Shown here piece by piece: positions 1 through 5,507 of a DNA stretch of 8,076 bases. Numbering within the stretch: the stretch's first letter is position 1; the number at the start of each line of letters is the position of its first letter. The stretch lies in the IMG/VR virus record IMGVR_UViG_2531839474_000011; one strand, 5' to 3'. The position numbers and the translations under genes are program-made. The notes under the pieces are model-generated. The model did not search any database. It worked only from the letters and a program-made list of their open reading frames with translations, and was not told the DNA's origin. The DNA comes from a virus. Taxonomy: Duplodnaviria; Heunggongvirae; Uroviricota; Caudoviricetes.

Positions 1-1284
1 TTACTTCTTCGCCTCTGCAACCACTTTACTACCCACGCCGCGGTTATTGTATTCCCACATGCGGTTGTAGTTAGTGTCATTCAGATTGCGCTGTATTTCG
101 TCGTTATCATCTACGCTGCCGGTATTACCCGCAAACGGACGATTAGAGATCACCGCATCGGCCCACGGTTTAGCCGTGTTAAAACCTTCGTTGATGGCGC
201 TATCACGGATCACCACCTGACCGTTGGTATTGGCATCAACATCCAGCGAGCGGCCCAGTTGCGCCACACCATCACCGAAAGCATTGAAACGGCTGTTTAC
301 GGCGAGGAAACCGTAGTAAATGTTGGACAGCGTAGCCGGTGCAAACACATACGCTTCTTGCTGAGTACGTGAGTTCACCACGCGGAATTCGGTGTTATCG
401 AACACCACTGCGCCGCGACCAGAAACGATATCCACATCCCCTTCAATGTAGCTGTTGGTCACCAGCGTACGCGGCTGACGATTTGTTTCCAGACGGTTCT
501 GCACACCGCTGTTGGTGACAAAGAAGGTGTTCTGACGACCGAGAATGTTAACGTTGTTAATCTGTACCTGGTCACCATCAGTACGCAGTGCCACCGCCGG
601 ATGGTTACCTGCATCTACGCTATCGCCCAGCGTGTTTTCGATGGTCAGATTTTGCAGTTGCAGGCCATTGTTTTGTGACCAGAAGACCGCAGAGCAGAGA
701 ACACCGATACTGTCGCTGCGTTTGCTCTGGCAGCTATCGTACATATACCACGCTGGTTTACCTGGCATATATTTGCCGCGCGGGTTGACGTCGTGACGCC
801 AGTCGGCAGGGCTCATGCCACCATCAAGGGAAAGCCCAATCTTCACATCAATCGGTTTTTCACCTGTACCGTACAGAGTAATTCCACCCGGAGCGGCAGG
901 GACATATACCGTTCCCTGATACTCACCAGGCATCACGGCAATATACTGGCGCTTGTTGGTACGCTTGATAATTGCCGCATCTACCGCCGCCTGAATCGTG
1001 GTATGCGTTACACCTTGAGTGCCCGCCGGGCCGACAACAAAGTCAGGTTGCGCAGGCAGGGTAATCGGGGAAGGATTCCACGCTGCAGCACCTGGTGTCA
1101 GGGATGCAAAATAGTGTTGAGCATCGAAATTCTGCGCTTCTTTTGCCGACAGAATCGGGCGAGAAGAGGTACCAGGCGCGGTTTGATCAGAAGGACGTTG
1201 ATCGGGCGGGGTTGAGCTACAGGCGGTCAGCGTCACGCCAAAAGCCAATGCCAGCGCCAGACGGGAAACTGAAAATGTGTTCAC
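1..1284 (-). CDS. ybhC: YbhC-like lipoprotein (pectinesterase-family, putative acyl-CoA thioesterase); host gene flanking attB-lambda
   Basis: Complete 427-aa ORF. GTG start at 1284-1282 with GGAG Shine-Dalgarno 7-8 nt upstream; TAA stop at 3-1. N-terminus MNTFSVSRLALALAFGVTLTAC is a lipoprotein signal peptide with lipobox LTAC. Recognised from memory as the gene on the gal side of attB-lambda. Confidence 0.8.
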   Translation of the reverse strand: MNTFSVSRLALALAFGVTLTACSSTPPDQRPSDQTAPGTSSRPILSAKEAQNFDAQHYFASLTPGAAAWNPSPITLPAQPDFVVGPAGTQGVTHTTIQAAVDAAIIKRTNKRQYIAVMPGEYQGTVYVPAAPGGITLYGTGEKPIDVKIGLSLDGGMSPADWRHDVNPRGKYMPGKPAWYMYDSCQSKRSDSIGVLCSAVFWSQNNGLQLQNLTIENTLGDSVDAGNHPAVALRTDGDQVQINNVNILGRQNTFFVTNSGVQNRLETNRQPRTLVTNSYIEGDVDIVSGRGAVVFDNTEFRVVNSRTQQEAYVFAPATLSNIYYGFLAVNSRFNAFGDGVAQLGRSLDVDANTNGQVVIRDSAINEGFNTAKPWADAVISNRPFAGNTGSVDDNDEIQRNLNDTNYNRMWEYNNRGVGSKVVAEAKK

Positions 1285-1345: not shown

Positions 1346-1425
1346 GTTGGCATTATAAAAAAGCATTGCTTATCAATTTGTTGCAACGAACAGGTCACTA
1401 TCAGTCAAAATAAAATCATTATTTG
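1346..1425. promoter_or_regulatory. P' arm of attL: IHF H' site and tandem Int arm-type sites P'1-P'3
   Basis: IHF-like motif TATCAATTTGTTG at about 1371-1383. Repeated arm-type-like elements GTCACTATCAGTCAAAATAAAATCATTATT at about 1392-1425. Overlaps the 3' end of int as in lambda attP. Confidence 0.7.
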
Positions 1426-2489
1426 ATTTCAATTTTGTCCCACTCCCTGCCTCTGTCATCACGATACTGTGATGCCATGGTGTCCGACTTATGCCCGAGA
1501 AGATGTTGAGCAAACTTATCGCTTATCTGCTTCTCATAGAGTCTTGCAGACAAACTGCGCAACTCGTGAAAGGTAGGCGGATCCCCTTCGAAGGAAAGAC
1601 CTGATGCTTTTCGTGCGCGCATAAAATACCTTGATACTGTGCCGGATGAAAGCGGTTCACGACGAGTAGATGCAATTATGGTTTCTCCGCCAAGAATCTC
1701 TTTGCATTTATCAAGTGTTTCCTTCATTGATATCCCGAGAGCATCAACATGCAATGTTGTTGGGATGGCAATTTTTACGCCTGTTTTGCTTTGCTCGACA
1801 TAAAGATATCCATCTACGATATCAGACCACTTCATTTCGCATAAATCACCAACTCGCTGCCCGGTAACAACAGCCAGTTCCATTGCAAGTCTGAGCCAAC
1901 ATGGTGATGATTCTGCTGCTTGATAAATTTTCAGGTATTCGTCAGCCGTAAGTCTTGATCTCCTTACCTCTGATTTTGCTGCGCGAGTGGCAGCGACAGG
2001 GTTTGTTGTTATATGGCCTTCAGCTATTGCCTCTCGGAATGCATCGCTCAGTGTTGATCTGATTAACTTGGCTGATGCCGCCTTGCCCTCGTCTATGTAT
2101 CCATTGAGCATTGCCGCAATTTCTTTTGTGGTGATGTCTTCAAGTGGAGCATCAGGCAGACCCCTCCTTATTGCTTTAATTTTGCTCATGTAATTTATGA
2201 GTGTCTTCTGCTTGATTCCTCTGCTGGCGAGTATTTTTTCGTAGCGATCAAGCCATGAATGTAACGTAACAGAATTATCACTGTTGATTCTCGCTGTCAG
2301 AGGCTTGTGTTTGTGTCCTGAAAATAACTCAATGTTTGCCTGTATTGCTTCAGTAATTGCTATCCTCCTGTCTCTGCCTAATCCGAACTCTTTACCCGTC
2401 CTTGGGTCCCTGTAGCAGTAATATCCATTGTTTCTTATATAAAGGTTAGGGGGTAAATCCCGGCGCTCATGACTTCGCCTTCTTCCCAT
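1419..2489 (-). CDS. int: lambda integrase (tyrosine site-specific recombinase)
   Basis: 356-aa ORF beginning MGRRRSHERRDLPPNLYIRNNGYYCYRDPRTGKEFGLG and ending ...HLLGHKSDTMASQYRDDRGREWDKIEIK. Matches lambda Int in length and sequence from memory; contains the tyrosine-recombinase catalytic region (HELRS...HLLGH...Y). Position is adjacent to attL. Confidence 0.97.
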   Translation of the reverse strand: MGRRRSHERRDLPPNLYIRNNGYYCYRDPRTGKEFGLGRDRRIAITEAIQANIELFSGHKHKPLTARINSDNSVTLHSWLDRYEKILASRGIKQKTLINYMSKIKAIRRGLPDAPLEDITTKEIAAMLNGYIDEGKAASAKLIRSTLSDAFREAIAEGHITTNPVAATRAAKSEVRRSRLTADEYLKIYQAAESSPCWLRLAMELAVVTGQRVGDLCEMKWSDIVDGYLYVEQSKTGVKIAIPTTLHVDALGISMKETLDKCKEILGGETIIASTRREPLSSGTVSRYFMRARKASGLSFEGDPPTFHELRSLSARLYEKQISDKFAQHLLGHKSDTMASQYRDDRGREWDKIEIK

Positions 2490-2685
2490 TTCTGATTCTC
2501 TTCAAAAGGCTACCTGTTACTGGTCGATTTAAGTCAACCTTTACCGCTGATTCGTGGAACAGATACTCTCTTCCATCCTTAACTGGAGGAGGGAATATCC
2601 TGCATTCGCGCACCCATCGACGAACTGTTTCAAGGCTTCTTGGGCGCCGCTGGCGTGCGTTCCACTCCTGAAGTGTTAAGTACAT
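2467..2685 (-). CDS. xis: lambda excisionase Xis (72 aa)
   Basis: MYLTLQEWNARQRRPRSLETVRRWVRECRIFPPPVKDGREYLFHESAVKVDLNRPVTGSLLKRIRNGKKAKS. ATG at 2685-2683. Overlaps int by 23 nt as in lambda. The 30-codon upstream extension in the ORF track is not used. Confidence 0.93.
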   Translation of the reverse strand: MYLTLQEWNARQRRPRSLETVRRWVRECRIFPPPVKDGREYLFHESAVKVDLNRPVTGSLLKRIRNGKKAKS

Positions 2686-2697
2686 CGCAAAGTCTCC

Positions 2698-2711
2698 GCA
2701 ATTACACGCAA
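2698..2711 (-). promoter_or_regulatory. cII-binding box TTGC-N6-TTGC of the pI (int) promoter, inside the xis 5' region
   Basis: Minus strand reads TTGCGTGTAATTGC (direct TTGC repeat, 6-nt spacer) 13 nt upstream of the xis ATG. This places the pI transcript start inside xis, so pI transcripts encode Int but not Xis (known lambda arrangement). Confidence 0.65.
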
Positions 2712-2733
2712 GAAAAAACCGCATTGATGCGGC
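2710..2733 (-). terminator. putative intrinsic terminator (5-6 bp GC stem + T-run) downstream of the IS2-interrupted gene
   Basis: Minus strand GCCGCATCAATGCGG followed by TTTTTTCTT. A second perfect 7-bp hairpin GCCTCAC-ACTCG-GTGAGGC lies at 2769-2787 without a T-run. The T-run runs into the cII box of pI. Confidence 0.4.
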
Positions 2734-2802
2734 GATGGTAGGTCTGGATATCATTGAGCAATGAACAGGCCTCACCGAGTGTGAGGCGGTGTTATTTCAT
2801 GG

Positions 2803-2846
2803 TTAGTCCTTGCGTAGCTCGCTGATTCTTCTGTAAGTCTCTGGTG
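2803..2846 (-). pseudogene. 3' remnant (last 14 codons + stop) of the accessory gene split by IS2
   Basis: Joining 4183 to 2846 across the IS2 and its 5-bp duplication restores an uninterrupted frame ending ...KIHGNK-APETYRRISELRKD with TAA at 2805-2803. Confidence 0.6.
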
Positions 2847-2851
2847 CTTTG
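2847..2851. repeat. IS2 target-site duplication, left copy (CTTTG)
   Basis: CTTTG immediately outside the IS2 left end; identical 5-mer at 4183-4187 immediately outside the right end. 5 bp is the duplication size known for IS2. Confidence 0.85.
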
Positions 2852-2892
2852 TAGACTGGCCCCCTGAATCTCCAGACAACCAGTATCACTTA
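2852..2892. repeat. IS2 left terminal inverted repeat (IRL)
   Basis: Imperfect inverted complement of 4142-4182. Confidence 0.75.
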
Positions 2893-2942
2893 AATAAGTG
2901 ATAGTCTTAATACTAGTTTTTAGACTAGTCATTGGAGAACAG

Positions 2943-3308
2943 ATGATTGATGTCTTAGGGCCGGAGAAACGCAGACGGCGTACCACACAGGAAAAGATCG
3001 CAATTGTTCAGCAGAGCTTTGAACCGGGGATGACGGTCTCCCTCGTTGCCCGGCAACATGGTGTAGCAGCCAGCCAGTTATTTCTCTGGCGTAAGCAATA
3101 CCAGGAAGGAAGTCTTACTGCTGTCGCCGCCGGAGAACAGGTTGTTCCTGCCTCTGAACTTGCTGCCGCCATGAAGCAGATTAAAGAACTCCAGCGCCTG
3201 CTCGGCAAGAAAACGATGGAAAATGAACTCCTCAAAGAAGCCGTTGAATATGGACGGGCAAAAAAGTGGATAGCGCACGCGCCCTTATTGCCCGGGGATG
3301 GGGAGTAA
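2943..3308 (+). CDS. insC: IS2 InsC (OrfA; helix-turn-helix transposase subunit/regulator)
   Basis: 121 aa: [56 protein letters not shown]... Start ATG at 2943 is preferred over the upstream ATG at 2898 given in the ORF track. Confidence 0.9.
3260..3266 (+). other. programmed -1 ribosomal frameshift heptamer A-AAA-AAG (produces the InsCD fusion transposase)
   Basis: AAAAAAG in the insC zero frame (gcA AAA AAG tgg = A-K-K-W), at the start of the insC/insD overlap. Characteristic of IS2 and IS3-family elements. Confidence 0.75.
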
Positions 3309-4171
3309 GCTTAGTCAGCCGTTGTCTCCGGGTGTCGCGTGCGCAGTTGCACGTCATTCTCAGACGAACCGATGACTGGATGGATGGCCGCCGCAGTCGT
3401 CACACTGATGATACGGATGTGCTTCTCCGTATACACCATGTTATCGGAGAGCTGCCCACGTATGGTTATCGTCGGGTATGGGCGCTGCTTCGCAGACAGG
3501 CAGAACTTGATGGTATGCCTGCGATCAATGCCAAACGTGTTTACCGGATCATGCGCCAGAATGCGCTGTTGCTTGAGCGAAAACCTGCTGTACCGCCATC
3601 GAAACGGGCACATACAGGCAGAGTGGCCGTGAAAGAAAGCAATCAGCGATGGTGCTCTGACGGGTTCGAGTTCTGCTGTGATAACGGAGAGAGACTGCGT
3701 GTCACGTTCGCGCTGGACTGCTGTGATCGTGAGGCACTGCACTGGGCGGTCACTACCGGCGGCTTCAACAGTGAAACAGTACAGGACGTCATGCTGGGAG
3801 CGGTGGAACGCCGCTTCGGCAACGATCTTCCGTCGTCTCCAGTGGAGTGGCTGACGGATAATGGTTCATGCTACCGGGCTAATGAAACACGCCAGTTCGC
3901 CCGGATGTTGGGACTTGAACCGAAGAACACGGCGGTGCGGAGTCCGGAGAGTAACGGAATAGCAGAGAGCTTCGTGAAAACGATAAAGCGTGACTACATC
4001 AGTATCATGCCCAAACCAGACGGGTTAACGGCAGCAAAGAACCTTGCAGAGGCGTTCGAGCATTATAACGAATGGCATCCGCATAGTGCGCTGGGTTATC
4101 GCTCGCCACGGGAATATCTGCGGCAGCGGGCTTGTAATGGGTTAAGTGATAACAGATGTCTGGAAATATAG
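3266..4171 (+). CDS. insD: IS2 InsD (OrfB; DDE transposase catalytic domain, rve/integrase core)
   Basis: 301-aa ORF in the -1 frame relative to insC, starting [20 protein letters not shown]... and ending ...[31 protein letters not shown]. The in-frame start codon at 3266 is GTG. Confidence 0.9.
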
Positions 4172-4182
4172 GGGCAAATCCA
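4142..4182. repeat. IS2 right terminal inverted repeat (IRR)
   Basis: Imperfect inverted complement of IRL; ends ...TATAGGGGCAAATCCA at 4182. Confidence 0.75.
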
Positions 4183-4187
4183 CTTTG
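4183..4187. repeat. IS2 target-site duplication, right copy (CTTTG)
   Basis: Identical to 2847-2851. Confidence 0.85.
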
Positions 4188-4483
4188 TTTCCGTGTATCT
4201 TCATTTCAGACTTCAACAGAGCAACGAGGGAATCCCATTCGTTGAGGATTCCTTTGAATGCCGGAACGCGCTTTGCAACCTTGTTGAATGAATCTCTGAT
4301 TTCTGGAATCTGCTCAACAAGTGCAACGCATCGTCTGAAATCGGCTGCGTCATGGGGAGCGCCGAAGTGATGACCATAGATATTCTTTTTCAGTCCACAT
4401 GCGATTGAGGCAAGAGTTGCGCTACTGATGCCAACATCGCCAGTCGATTGCCATTTCAAAACCTTCATAGCCAAATCTGACAT
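4183..4483 (-). pseudogene. 5' portion of a phage accessory gene of unknown function, cut by IS2 14 codons before its stop
   Basis: Likely start ATG 4483-4481 (MSDLAMKVLKWQSTGDVGISSATLASIACGLKKNIYGHHFGAPHDAADFRRC...) with GGAGA Shine-Dalgarno 6 nt upstream. The ORF-track start at 4510 lacks a Shine-Dalgarno and sits in a terminator hairpin. The frame continues into the IS2 IRR, where 13 IS2-encoded residues ([13 protein letters not shown]) replace the native C-terminus. Confidence 0.6.
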
Positions 4484-4494
4484 TTCTTGTCTCC

Positions 4495-4517
4495 AATAAA
4501 AAACCGCCATCAGGCGG
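4495..4517 (-). terminator. putative intrinsic terminator between the zinc-ribbon ORF and the IS2-interrupted gene
   Basis: Minus strand CCGCC-TGAT-GGCGG followed by TTTTTTATT; the T-run directly abuts the GGAGA Shine-Dalgarno of the next gene. Confidence 0.45.
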
Positions 4518-4583
4518 CTTGGTGTTCTTTCAGTTCTTCAATTCGAATATTGGTTACATTGTTTTCATATATGAATAAATAAA

Positions 4584-4763
4584 TTAGCTTTTTTCGTTGC
4601 CTTCGCGTTCTTTATTAATTTTGACAAAATCGTTTTTACCACGCTCTCCAAATACGTCTTTAGAGTCGTTGTATCCGCAATCGCAGCACACATAATCATC
4701 AGACCATCCACGCATTGTTTTTTCTTTTGCAATATTTCCAGAACCGCATTTTGGACAAGACAT
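4584..4763 (-). CDS. small Cys4 zinc-ribbon protein (59 aa), function unknown
   Basis: MSCPKCGSGNIAKEKTMRGWSDDYVCCDCGYNDSKDVFGERGKNDFVKINKEREGNEKS with CxxC...CCxC. Strong GGAGG Shine-Dalgarno 7 nt upstream of ATG 4763; the longer 70-aa version starting at 4796 has none. AT-rich local composition. Confidence 0.55.
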   Translation of the reverse strand: MSCPKCGSGNIAKEKTMRGWSDDYVCCDCGYNDSKDVFGERGKNDFVKINKEREGNEKS

Positions 4764-4859
4764 ATCACTACCTCCAAAGCATGAGAGAGATGACAACGTA
4801 ACATTGATTGGAGATTAACAATAGATTGCTGATGTAAAAGATATGTATAAGCTTAGCTA

Positions 4860-5507
4860 TCAAAGAGGAGGTTCTGGTAGTTGCATCCAGTCGGTTACAT
4901 TGCGACTCTGTGTTTCGAAAAATTCATCACCATTGCGGACAATATCGAAAAACTCTCCGTCTCGATATTGCGCATAAAGAACGAATGCGCCATCACATAA
5001 AATAATTACGTGCTGACCATCATCTGGCATTAGCTCACTACAGCTTATCCAACCATCCGGAGTTACCGGAGAGTTGCCGGGTTCTTTAATGTGCAAACGA
5101 GGCTCACCATCTTTTGGTTCAGGCCACTGACGCTCCATGTTGATCTTCAATTTATTTTCCATAGCAGCGGTAATTTCAGCATCACTGATACCGGCACGGC
5201 GCTGTGCATCCCACAACAGGAACTGCATATCAGCCCACTCGCTGAGATCGTCAGGTTCGGCTGCGGCTTCCAGAGCCTCTTTTGAGAGGTGTTTCAGTGG
5301 ACCAATGGGGCCAACGCAGCCAAATGTGGAGTCAGACCATTTGGCATGCTCGTGGCGAACCCGCTCGCGTTCCAGTGAGGCGAGAGCGATTTTAAATGCT
5401 GTAAGCATGTGTGCTTGATCGTTATCGAGTCCGAATGGCATTTCATCTCGTGCTGACTCAATACTGGTAATCGTATTTTGTAGCCATTCCATGGTAAAAG
5501 TGCTCAT
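4860..5507 (-). CDS. 215-aa phage accessory protein; two-domain architecture resembling the DUF550/DUF551 class found near Ea22-like genes (unverified)
   Basis: ATG overlaps the upstream stop in an ATGA junction (5504-5507). Acidic N-terminal region; C-terminal region GWISCSELMPDDGQHVIILCDGAFVLYAQYRDGEFFDIVRNGDEFFETQSRNVTDWMQLPEPP. The domain assignment is from memory only. Confidence 0.65.
   Translation of the reverse strand: MSTFTMEWLQNTITSIESARDEMPFGLDNDQAHMLTAFKIALASLERERVRHEHAKWSDSTFGCVGPIGPLKHLSKEALEAAAEPDDLSEWADMQFLLWDAQRRAGISDAEITAAMENKLKINMERQWPEPKDGEPRLHIKEPGNSPVTPDGWISCSELMPDDGQHVIILCDGAFVLYAQYRDGEFFDIVRNGDEFFETQSRNVTDWMQLPEPPL

What the first reader, a model, noticed from the sequence alone, without database searches (positions are those of the whole stretch)
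2803..4483. Reconstructable accessory gene (about 114-123 aa) of unknown function, cut near its 3' end by IS2
Removing the IS2 and one copy of CTTTG restores an uninterrupted frame: MSDLAMKVLKWQSTGDVGISSATLASIACGLKKNIYGHHFGAPHDAADFRRCVALVEQIPEIRDSFNKVAKRVPAFKGILNEWDSLVALLKSEMKIHGNKAPETYRRISELRKD. It occupies the slot right next to xis where lambda carries ea8.5, but I do not recognise it as Ea8.5. Hairpin plus T-run elements sit on both sides of it on the coding strand, which is a moron-like arrangement. The interrupted allele still encodes all but the last 14 residues.
Basis: partly seen in the sequence, partly recalled or inferred. Interest (0 to 1): 0.6.

Follow-up and report, generated by a model that had tools for sequence, protein, structure and literature searches.

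The report
IS2-broken copy of phage ORF114
A small, widespread phage gene of unknown function (first listed as ORF114 of phage 434) sits next to the excision gene of a lambda-like prophage and has been cut by a jumping gene; the cut is an ordinary gene-killing event.

Summary
A complete 1331-bp IS2 (2852-4182, 5-bp duplication CTTTG) splits a minus-strand gene (4483..2803). Removing IS2 and one CTTTG gives a 345-nt, 114-aa ORF. That ORF is 345/345 nt identical to intact genes in other E. coli, 96.5% identical in protein to ORF114 of phage 434 and 97.4% to HK022 gene 32. It occurs in 963 of 5,426 complete E. coli genomes.

It is not lambda Ea8.5. It is PHROG 1229 ("unknown function"): at least 2,832 clusters at 50% identity, with no Pfam, NCBIfam, PADLOC or PDB relative. 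The confident seven-helix model has no structural analogue. W11, G18, S20, S21, P43, D45, D48, R51, C52 and W83 are invariant or nearly so.

Relatives lie in early operons of many phage types, usually near recombination or anti-nuclease genes. No promoter-like site was found, so the "moron" reading is only half supported.

The IS2 allele loses conserved helix 7 and is probably dead. This junction is in none of 5,426 complete genomes. Function stays unknown. My best guess, at low confidence, is an early lytic accessory factor that binds or acts on a conserved nucleotide or nucleic-acid ligand. The gene and the IS2 are known things; only the unexplained family is of interest.

The parts
4183..4483 (-). 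5' fragment of the ORF114-family gene: codons 1-100 plus one base. ATG at 4483-4481.
   Evidence: Matches PHROG 1229 over its full length after reconstruction.
2803..2851 (-). 3' fragment of the same gene: rest of codon 101 to codon 114, plus TAA stop at 2803-2805. It includes one copy of the target duplication (2847-2851).
   Evidence: The joined CDS is 345/345 nt identical to intact genes.
2852..4182 (+). Complete IS2 (IS3 family): IRL at 2852, IRR at 4182, orfA 2943-3308, orfB frame 3266-4171, A6G frameshift site at 3260. The transposase runs opposite to the interrupted gene.
   Evidence: 100% identical to annotated IS2 in L002. The end sequences match those described in PMC3299598.
4183..4187 (.). 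Second copy of the 5-bp target-site duplication CTTTG. The first copy is at 2847-2851.
4142..4483 (-). Hybrid ORF actually encoded now: 100 native residues plus [13 protein letters not shown] read from the IS2 IRR end (113 aa).
   Evidence: Found as a called gene only on scaffold JH659569.1 of GCA_000261145.1. In the AF2 model the new tail has pLDDT 58-66.
4491..4494 (-). Shine-Dalgarno GGAG, 7 nt upstream of the ATG at 4483.
   Evidence: Read directly from the sequence.
4501..4520 (-). Upstream hairpin plus T-run (AAGCCGCCTGATGGCGG TTTTTT). It is the same element that precedes xis in lambda, and it overlaps the 3' end of an orf55 remnant.
2718..2733 (-). Downstream hairpin plus T-run (GCCGCATCAATGCGG TTTTTT) between the gene and xis. 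It lies at the same position, between ORF114 and xis, as the terminator annotated t'-I in the phage 434 record.
2769..2787 (.). G+C-rich hairpin 16 nt after the stop codon. Its T-run is on the + strand only.
2467..2685 (-). xis (72 aa), the downstream neighbour. Context only.
   Evidence: excisionase WP_001303849.1 at the equivalent place; 97.9% nt identity to lambda across attL, int and xis.
1419..2489 (-). int. The attL core GCTTTTTTATACTAA at 1331-1345 joins it to host ybhC (1-1284). Context only.

Best explanation
SHOWN. The feature is a copy of the lambdoid-phage gene first recorded as ORF114 of phage 434 (also HK022 gene 32; PHROG 1229). It lies in a lambda/434-type prophage integrated at attB-lambda, next to ybhC. 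A full-length, apparently active IS2 inserted at codon 100/101, and this appears to be recent or rare.
- The gene lies in the leftward early region, between the Red genes and xis/int.
- It has a Shine-Dalgarno site but no recognisable promoter of its own.
- It is bracketed by two intrinsic-terminator-like hairpins.
- The encoded protein is a compact seven-helix domain.
- W11, G18, S20, S21, P43, D45, D48, R51, C52 and W83 are invariant or nearly so across relatives that share only 25-40% identity.
- The fold has no match in the PDB.

INFERRED.
(a) Expression comes from the early leftward (pL-type) transcript under N antitermination during lytic growth or induction, not from the repressed prophage.
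(b) The invariant Ser-Ser / Asp-x-x-Asp-x-x-Arg-Cys cluster sits at helix N-termini. I read it as a binding or catalytic site for a universally conserved, probably phosphate-bearing ligand (a nucleotide, nucleic-acid end or tRNA), not for a host-specific protein. The reason is that the same residues are kept in phages of Proteobacteria and Actinobacteria and in a predicted giant-virus protein.
(c) The role is a dispensable early accessory one: host takeover, counter-defence, or support of the adjacent recombination and anti-nuclease module.
(d) The IS2 allele is a null or near-null, because conserved helix 7 (residues 102-111, A-P-x-T-Y...L) is replaced by 13 unrelated residues.

CONFIDENCE. 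Identity and anatomy about 0.95. Loss of function about 0.7. The functional class in (b) and (c) about 0.35. The single confidence number given for this explanation (0.8) refers to the statement as a whole, weighted towards the shown parts.
For: Identity:
- reconstruction of the ORF.
- PHROG 1229, E = 1e-51, positions 1-114 against 1-113 of 116.
- 100% identity to Stx1a_EH2115, 97.4% to HK022, 96.5% to 434 'ORF114'; 254 phage records cover at least 80% of the protein.
- annotations in HK022 and 434.
- present in 963 of 5,426 genomes.

Selection:
- dN/dS is 0.13-0.16 against 434 and HK022.
- The profile search finds 2,832 representatives at E <= 1e-3 and 640 at E <= 1e-10.
- The invariant residues come from 90 diverse members.

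Fold:
- AF2 pLDDT 92.6, pTM 0.86, seven helices.
- Foldseek against PDB finds nothing at E < 3.
- PDB sequence searches are negative.
- BFVD returns only uncharacterised homologues.

Context of relatives, always in early regions:
- With ERF and integrase.
- With RecT, an exonuclease and xis/int.
- Translationally coupled between a PD-(D/E)XK exonuclease and an SMC-like ATPase.
- Next to RdgC in Salmonella phage Solent.
- In the Mu-like early region with Gam.
- In blocks of small genes in Vibrio podophages.

Expression: no promoter-like sites; terminators flank the gene.

Family pI ranges from 5.1 to 9.4, so it is neither a consistent DNA mimic nor a consistently basic DNA binder.
Against: - No experiment or annotated homologue gives a function.
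- The invariant residues could be structural (helix caps, a buried salt bridge) rather than a ligand site. I could not inspect the model coordinates to see whether they cluster.
- Guilt by association with recombination genes is weak, because early-left operons are general dumping grounds for accessory genes.
- The consensus promoter scan is crude and cannot exclude a weak or non-sigma-70 promoter, so expression in the lysogen is not excluded.
- AF2 still folds residues 1-100 of the truncated allele with confidence, so residual activity cannot be ruled out.
- pL and N lie outside the window (the scaffold ends in bet), and the closest relative is a prophage remnant. The operon may therefore not be expressible at all in this strain.
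Confidence: 0.8

Rival explanations
1. Lysogen-expressed 'moron'. The cassette would be an independently transcribed add-on that benefits the host, for example by phage exclusion or a growth effect, and IS2 removed that benefit.
For: Relative to lambda it is an insertion of about 425 bp bounded by two hairpin plus T6 elements that share GCGGTTTTTT. Terminator-like sites flank it. It is present or absent among lambdoid phages.
Against: There is no sigma-70-like promoter in either the interrupted or the intact locus. It has no PADLOC hit. Homologues occur inside early gene strings of phages with no integrase seen nearby (Vibrio podophages, Sashavirus Solent, and a contig with RtcB and dNMP kinase), which does not fit a lysogeny-specific role. 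It is co-oriented with, and inside, the pL-type operon.
Confidence: 0.1
2. Accessory factor of the phage recombination and anti-nuclease module. It would work with Exo/Bet, Erf, RecT, RdgC or Gam-type proteins on DNA ends.
For: Neighbours in unrelated phages include ERF, RecT plus exonuclease, a PD-(D/E)XK exonuclease and an SMC-like ATPase with overlapping stop and start codons, RdgC two genes away, Mu-type Gam and lambda exo/bet 2.3 kb away in the window.
Against: The partner gene is different in each case and no one neighbour is conserved. In 434, HK022 and the window the immediate neighbours are unrelated small genes (orf55, or an Eag/Lar-like Zn ribbon). Family pI is not consistently basic. 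There is no fold similarity to known recombination mediators.
Confidence: 0.2
3. tRNA or RNA-end related factor. The domain would bind tRNA 3' ends or nucleotides, and would protect or help repair tRNA attacked by host nucleotidyltransferase or anticodon-nuclease defences.
Confidence: 0.1
4. The ORF is not a real gene, or the IS2 'interruption' is an assembly artefact.
For: The window comes from the end of a draft scaffold, and the IS2 junction is absent from all 5,426 complete E. coli genomes.
Against: The family is full length, under purifying selection and very large. Both junctions carry a perfect 5-bp duplication with complete IS2 ends, which is the signature of true transposition and not of mis-assembly.
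Confidence: 0.02

Closest known systems
ORF114 of phage 434 (GenBank M60848) and HK022 gene 32 (HK022_32, AUM59808.1)
   Same: 96.5% and 97.4% protein identity over all 114 residues. Same position immediately upstream of xis, and same flanking terminator (t'-I in the 434 record).
   Different: The window copy is split by IS2. Its upstream neighbour is an Eag/Lar-like Zn-ribbon gene, with only a 48-bp remnant of orf55, whereas 434 and HK022 have an intact ORF55.
PHROG 1229 (phage protein family, function unknown)
   Same: Full-length profile match, E = 1e-51. The same domain is found in P22-like Salmonella phages, Stx phages, Vibrio, Yersinia, Mannheimia, Haemophilus Mu-like, Arthrobacter and Clavibacter phages.
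   Different: Nothing in sequence. The family has no curated Pfam or NCBIfam model and no assigned function.
Lambda Ea8.5 and lambda orf55 (lambdap35), the genes in the corresponding lambda slot
   Same: Small non-essential genes between xis and ea22 in the leftward early operon.
   Different: No sequence similarity to Ea8.5. In lambda the ORF114 cassette is simply absent, and xis is followed directly by the hairpin and orf55.
IS2 (IS3 family insertion sequence)
   Same: 1331 bp, IRL and IRR ends, orfA/orfB with A6G frameshift site, 5-bp target duplication, 100% identity to an annotated IS2.
   Different: None. This insertion site was not found in 5,426 complete E. coli genomes.

Membership tests
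IS2 (IS3 family) | Element of about 1.33 kb with imperfect 41/42-bp terminal inverted repeats (IRL 5'-TAG..., IRR ...TCCA-3') | tested here: met
   1331 bp, and the ends are as described (end sequences in PMC3299598).
IS2 (IS3 family) | [quoted passage not shown] | tested here: met
   orfA 2943-3308, orfB frame 3266-4171, A6G at 3260. The identical copy is annotated 'IS2 family transposase, programmed frameshift'.
IS2 (IS3 family) | 5-bp direct duplication of the target | tested here: met
   CTTTG at 2847-2851 and 4183-4187.
434 ORF114 / HK022 gp32 / PHROG 1229 | Full-length sequence match to the family profile | tested here: met
   E = 1e-51, residues 1-114 against profile positions 1-113 of 116. 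96-100% identity to named members.
434 ORF114 / HK022 gp32 / PHROG 1229 | Conserved signature W11, G18-x-S20-S21, P43-x-D45-x-x-D48-x-x-R51-C52, P60-E61, W83-D84, A101-P102-x-T-Y105 | tested here: met
   All are present in the reconstructed protein. The IS2 allele lacks the last motif.
434 ORF114 / HK022 gp32 / PHROG 1229 | Biochemical or biological function | not testable with these tools
   No member has an assigned function in any library or record seen.
Lambda Ea8.5 | Sequence similarity to lambda Ea8.5 (NP_040611.1) | tested here: not met
   BLASTP gives no alignment at E <= 100.
Moron (independent transcription unit inserted between phage genes) | Extra DNA relative to a close relative, inserted between two genes | tested here: met
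   The cassette is absent from lambda. The junctions lie at a duplicated hairpin plus T6 element.
Moron (independent transcription unit inserted between phage genes) | Own promoter upstream of the gene | tested here: not met
   0 sigma-70-like sites in window 2400-4900 and in the intact locus L001 2700-3800. This is a consensus scan only, so weak promoters are not excluded.
Moron (independent transcription unit inserted between phage genes) | Terminator downstream of the gene | tested here: met
   Hairpin plus T-run at 2733-2718, at the position of the terminator annotated t'-I in the 434 record.
Known anti-phage defence proteins (PADLOC-DB) | Match to any defence-system protein model | tested here: not met
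   0 families at E <= 1.
Curated domain families (Pfam-A, NCBIfam) | Match to any model | tested here: not met
   0 hits for the protein. No recurrent hit among 69 diverse members.

The most novel reading that the evidence does not exclude
The ORF114 / PHROG 1229 domain is an undescribed enzymatic or ligand-binding fold. Its invariant Ser-Ser / Asp-x-x-Asp-x-x-Arg-Cys site would let very diverse phages, in their early programme, sequester or modify a universal nucleotide-type molecule such as an immune second messenger, a tRNA end or a DNA end. That would make it a new counter-defence or host-takeover family. The evidence here does not exclude this: the family is large, under purifying selection, has no PDB analogue and no curated model. 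Nothing here positively shows it either.
Probability: 0.25. Interest if true: 0.6.

Novelty: already known. Interest (0 to 1): 0.22.

Why it matters
For this locus, little. An IS2 hop has knocked out one non-essential prophage gene in one draft E. coli genome, and both the gene and the IS are long catalogued.

The wider point is that ORF114 is a very common phage gene that nobody has explained:
- It is in about 18% of complete E. coli genomes.
- The family has at least 2,800 sequence clusters across phages of several bacterial phyla.
- It has been in the sequence records of phages 434 and HK022 for decades.
- It has no curated domain model, no solved structure, a confidently predicted fold without analogues, and a strictly invariant polar motif.

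That makes the family, not this broken copy, a reasonable target for a function screen. The naturally truncated allele offers a ready-made control.

Tried and rejected
1. Pfam, NCBIfam and PADLOC scans of the protein gave nothing. A Pfam scan of 69 diverse members gave only scattered noise.
2. Fold searches of the pLDDT-92.6 model:
   - Foldseek against PDB found nothing at E < 3.
   - BFVD returned only uncharacterised homologues.
   - The afdb50 library was unavailable.
3. PDB sequence and profile searches with A3 and A4 had a best E of 0.06-0.4, which I treat as noise.
4. Fusion partners. Pfam and PHROG scans of 20 longer family members found no recognisable partner domain, except one CCA-adding enzyme fusion and one weak Zn ribbon.
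5. Conserved-partner idea (the Zn-ribbon neighbour as a two-gene module) was rejected. The upstream neighbour is ORF55 in 434, HK022 and phi315 and is unrelated to the Eag-like gene here.
6. The 'DNA methyltransferase' annotated over a partial hit in phage phi315 is a neighbouring or overlapping ORF call, not a fusion that says anything about function.
A degenerate DNA pattern for the P-x-D-x-x-D-x-x-R-C motif was judged too unspecific and was not run.
8. Several encoding-contig look-ups returned only 1.5-2.5 kb contigs with no useful context.
9. Literature searches for ORF114, phrog_1229, exo-xis/HK022/mEp043 with anti-defence terms, and IS2 int-constitutive found no paper that characterises this protein.
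10. The 123-aa reading was rejected. The ATG at 4510 lies inside the terminator stem, whereas GGAG precedes the ATG at 4483, and PGAP and the 434 record both aa.
11. P0016 (122 aa) was checked as a possible second copy of the truncated allele. It is a different, N-terminally recombinant protein.
Full report
**1. What is in the window**

The window is the end of a draft E. coli scaffold (JH659569.1, assembly GCA_000261145.1). From left to right it contains:
- host ybhC (1-1284, minus strand);
- the lambda attL core GCTTTTTTATACTAA (1331-1345);
- int (1419-2489) and xis (2467-2685);
- the feature in question;
- a string of leftward early genes.

The early genes are an Eag/Lar-like Zn-ribbon gene, a MazZ-like dATP/dGTP pyrophosphohydrolase, an Ea22-like gene, a TraR/DksA-like gene, DUF1382, DUF1317, exo and a truncated bet. 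From attL to just upstream of xis the DNA is 97.9% identical to lambda. From attL through the whole ORF114 cassette it is 97.4% identical to the phage 434 record.

**2. Check of the observation**

A 1331-bp element lies at 2852-4182. Its ends are the IS2 IRL (TAGACTGG...) and IRR (...AAATCCA). It has open orfA and orfB frames and the A6G frameshift site at 3260. It is 100% identical to an annotated IS2 in E. coli strain 582 (end sequences as described in PMC3299598). CTTTG flanks it on both sides (2847-2851 and 4183-4187).

Removing IS2 and one CTTTG joins 4483..4188 to 2851..2803 on the minus strand. The present allele encodes residues 1-100 followed by [13 protein letters not shown] read from the IS2 end.

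The start is the ATG at 4483, with GGAG 7 nt upstream. The alternative ATG at 4510, which gives the "123 aa" version, lies inside a terminator stem.

The reconstruction is validated independently:
- Its protein is 100% identical to genes in two phage records.

The IS2 junction itself is in none of 5,426 complete E. coli genomes. The hybrid ORF is on record on only one contig. The insertion is therefore strain-specific, and probably recent given that the IS2 copy is intact.

**3. What the gene is**

It is not new. The phage 434 int-xis record (M60848) annotates it as ORF114, at 96.5% protein identity. It is also in mEp043, mEp213, mEp234, many Stx1 and Stx2 phages and P22-like Salmonella phages.

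It is present in 963 of 5,426 complete E. coli genomes, with up to four copies, and is always annotated "hypothetical protein". It matches PHROG 1229 ("unknown function") over its full length, E = 1e-51.

It has no detectable similarity to lambda Ea8.5.

**4. The slot and the "moron" question**

In lambda, xis is followed upstream by a hairpin plus T-run, then orf55 (lambdap35), then ea8.5. In 434 and HK022 the order is xis, terminator, ORF114, ORF55.

On the coding strand the window aligns with lambda as follows:
- The 3' end of orf55 and the hairpin AAGCCGCCTGATGGCGGTTTTTT are identical to lambda.
- Then the cassette follows: Shine-Dalgarno site, ORF114, and a G+C-rich hairpin.
- The cassette ends with a second hairpin, GCCGCATCAATGCGGTTTTTT.
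- After that the lambda sequence CTTGCGTGTAATTGCGGAG...ATG(xis) resumes.

The cassette is therefore an indel of about 425 bp, bounded by two hairpin plus T6 elements that share GCGGTTTTTT. The scan found 6 terminator-like sites against 2.4 +/- 1.5 in shuffles.

A moron also needs its own promoter. The consensus scan found none, either in the window or in the intact locus. The gene is co-oriented with the leftward early operon. I therefore infer that it is expressed from the early transcript, with N-type antitermination reading through the flanking terminators. This follows from established lambda biology and was not tested here. pL and N lie outside the window.

**5. The protein family**

A profile search of 1.84 billion representatives found 2,832 proteins at E <= 1e-3 and 640 at E <= 1e-10. 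Most are stand-alone proteins of 105-135 aa.

Among 90 diverse members, P43, D45, D48, R51, C52 and W83 are identical in all 90. W11, S20, S21 and G18 are identical in 87-89 of 90. G30, L55, P60, E61, D84, L86, E93, A101, P102 and Y105 are strongly conserved.

dN/dS against the 434 and HK022 alleles is 0.13-0.16.

There is no Pfam, NCBIfam or PADLOC model, even when 69 diverse members are scanned one by one.

AlphaFold2 gives a confident seven-helix model with pLDDT 92.6 and pTM 0.86. The structure searches found no analogue:
- Foldseek against PDB found nothing at E < 3.
- PDB sequence searches were negative.
- BFVD returned only uncharacterised homologues, among them a weak match to a Sylvanvirus (giant virus) protein (E = 0.05, 20% identity).

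By the secondary structure of the model, S20 and S21 start helix 2 and P43-x-D45 caps helix 3. D48, R51, C52 and L55 lie on one face of helix 3. Family pI ranges from about 5 to 9.4, so there is no consistent DNA-mimic or DNA-binder character.

**6. Context in relatives**

In every lineage I looked at, the gene sits among early genes, often near recombination or anti-nuclease functions:
- ERF and integrase;
- RecT, an exonuclease, a methylase, a Lar-like gene and xis/int;
- between a PD-(D/E)XK exonuclease and an SMC-like ATPase, with overlapping stop and start codons;
- two genes from RdgC in Sashavirus Solent;
- the Mu-like early region with Gam;
- near integrase and repressor in an Arthrobacter phage;
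- blocks of small unnamed genes in Vibrio podophages and in a 95-kb coliphage;
- a contig with RtcB, thymidylate kinase and dNMP kinase.

No single neighbour is conserved. Fusions are rare and mostly uninformative. The one exception is a CCA-adding enzyme plus HD protein that carries this domain at its C-terminus. It is on a 1.9-kb contig.

**7. Most likely mechanism**

Shown: the gene's identity, its anatomy, its conservation, and the lack of any known fold relative.

Inferred:
- ORF114 is a dispensable early lytic-cycle accessory protein.
- Its invariant polar cluster binds or acts on a universally conserved ligand, probably one bearing phosphate. The same residues persist in phages of distant hosts, which argues against a host-specific protein target.
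- The biological role is host takeover, counter-defence, or support of the adjacent recombination module. I put this functional class at about 0.35.

The rivals, detailed in their own section, are:
- a lysogen-expressed moron (0.1);
- a recombination accessory factor (0.2);
- a tRNA-end related factor (0.1);
- an artefact (0.02).

The IS2 allele lacks helix 7 (residues 102-111), which carries the conserved A-P-x-T-Y...M...L pattern typical of a core-packing amphipathic helix. AlphaFold2 keeps residues 1-100 unchanged but gives the substituted tail pLDDT 58-66. I judge loss of function likely, at about 0.7, but not proven.

**8. Comparison with the known, and verdict**

Membership of IS2 and of the ORF114 / PHROG 1229 family is met on every sequence feature that could be tested. 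Membership of Ea8.5 fails. The moron definition fails on the promoter criterion.

The finding is an accurate piece of sequence reading. What it found is a catalogued gene disrupted by a catalogued IS. The locus is ordinary. What remains of interest belongs to the family as a whole: it is very common, unexplained, structurally unmatched and has no curated model.

Noticed in passing
window 4584-4763 (-): The upstream neighbour is a 59-aa Zn-ribbon protein (CPKCG...CCDCG) that PGAP names 'Eag protein'. On the source scaffold it carries a weak Pfam hit to Lar_restr_allev (restriction alleviation). A larger Lar-like gene also lies near an ORF114 homologue in locus L015.
   Followed up: partly
window 4494-4557 and 2709-2733, compared with lambda 29102-29165: The ORF114 cassette is an indel relative to lambda. 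It is bounded by two related hairpin plus T6 terminators that share GCGGTTTTTT. A 48-bp remnant of the 3' end of lambda orf55 survives upstream, where the sequence then switches to unrelated DNA. This is a clean example of a mosaic joint at a terminator.
   Followed up: yes
proteins P0015, P0018, P0030, P0037, P0051, P0053, P0063: Public assemblies hold many chimeric ORFs in which the C-terminal part of ORF114 is joined to the N-terminus of a neighbouring early gene (MazZ-like, ERF, Ea22-like or Kil). The join is sometimes at short shared motifs such as AGIS / VGIS. This suggests frequent deletion or recombination joints inside this gene.
   Followed up: partly
[not shown]
   Followed up: no
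window 2852-4182: The IS2 copy is 100% identical over 1331 bp to the IS2 of another strain and has intact reading frames, so it is probably active and recently inserted. It lies about 165 bp upstream of xis, with its transposase running opposite to xis/int. From memory only: IS2 insertions near lambda xis/int were classically linked to int-constitutive mutants. The scan found no outward promoter here, and I could not verify that literature.
   Followed up: partly
locus L007 (P0177) and locus L012: One metagenomic protein fuses a CCA-adding enzyme plus HD domain to an ORF114-like C-terminal domain. Another homologue shares a gene string with RtcB RNA ligase. This is a weak lead towards tRNA-end biology.
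   Followed up: partly
window 2467-2775 (-): The mechanical ORF list extends xis to 102 aa from a GTG at 2775. The real xis is the 72-aa frame starting at the ATG at 2685 (MYLTLQEW...). The extension runs through the terminator hairpin.
   Followed up: yes
window 4860-5507 (-): A 215-aa protein combines a dATP/dGTP pyrophosphohydrolase (MazZ-like, PF04447) domain with DUF551. It is another early accessory gene that lambda lacks at this position.
   Followed up: no
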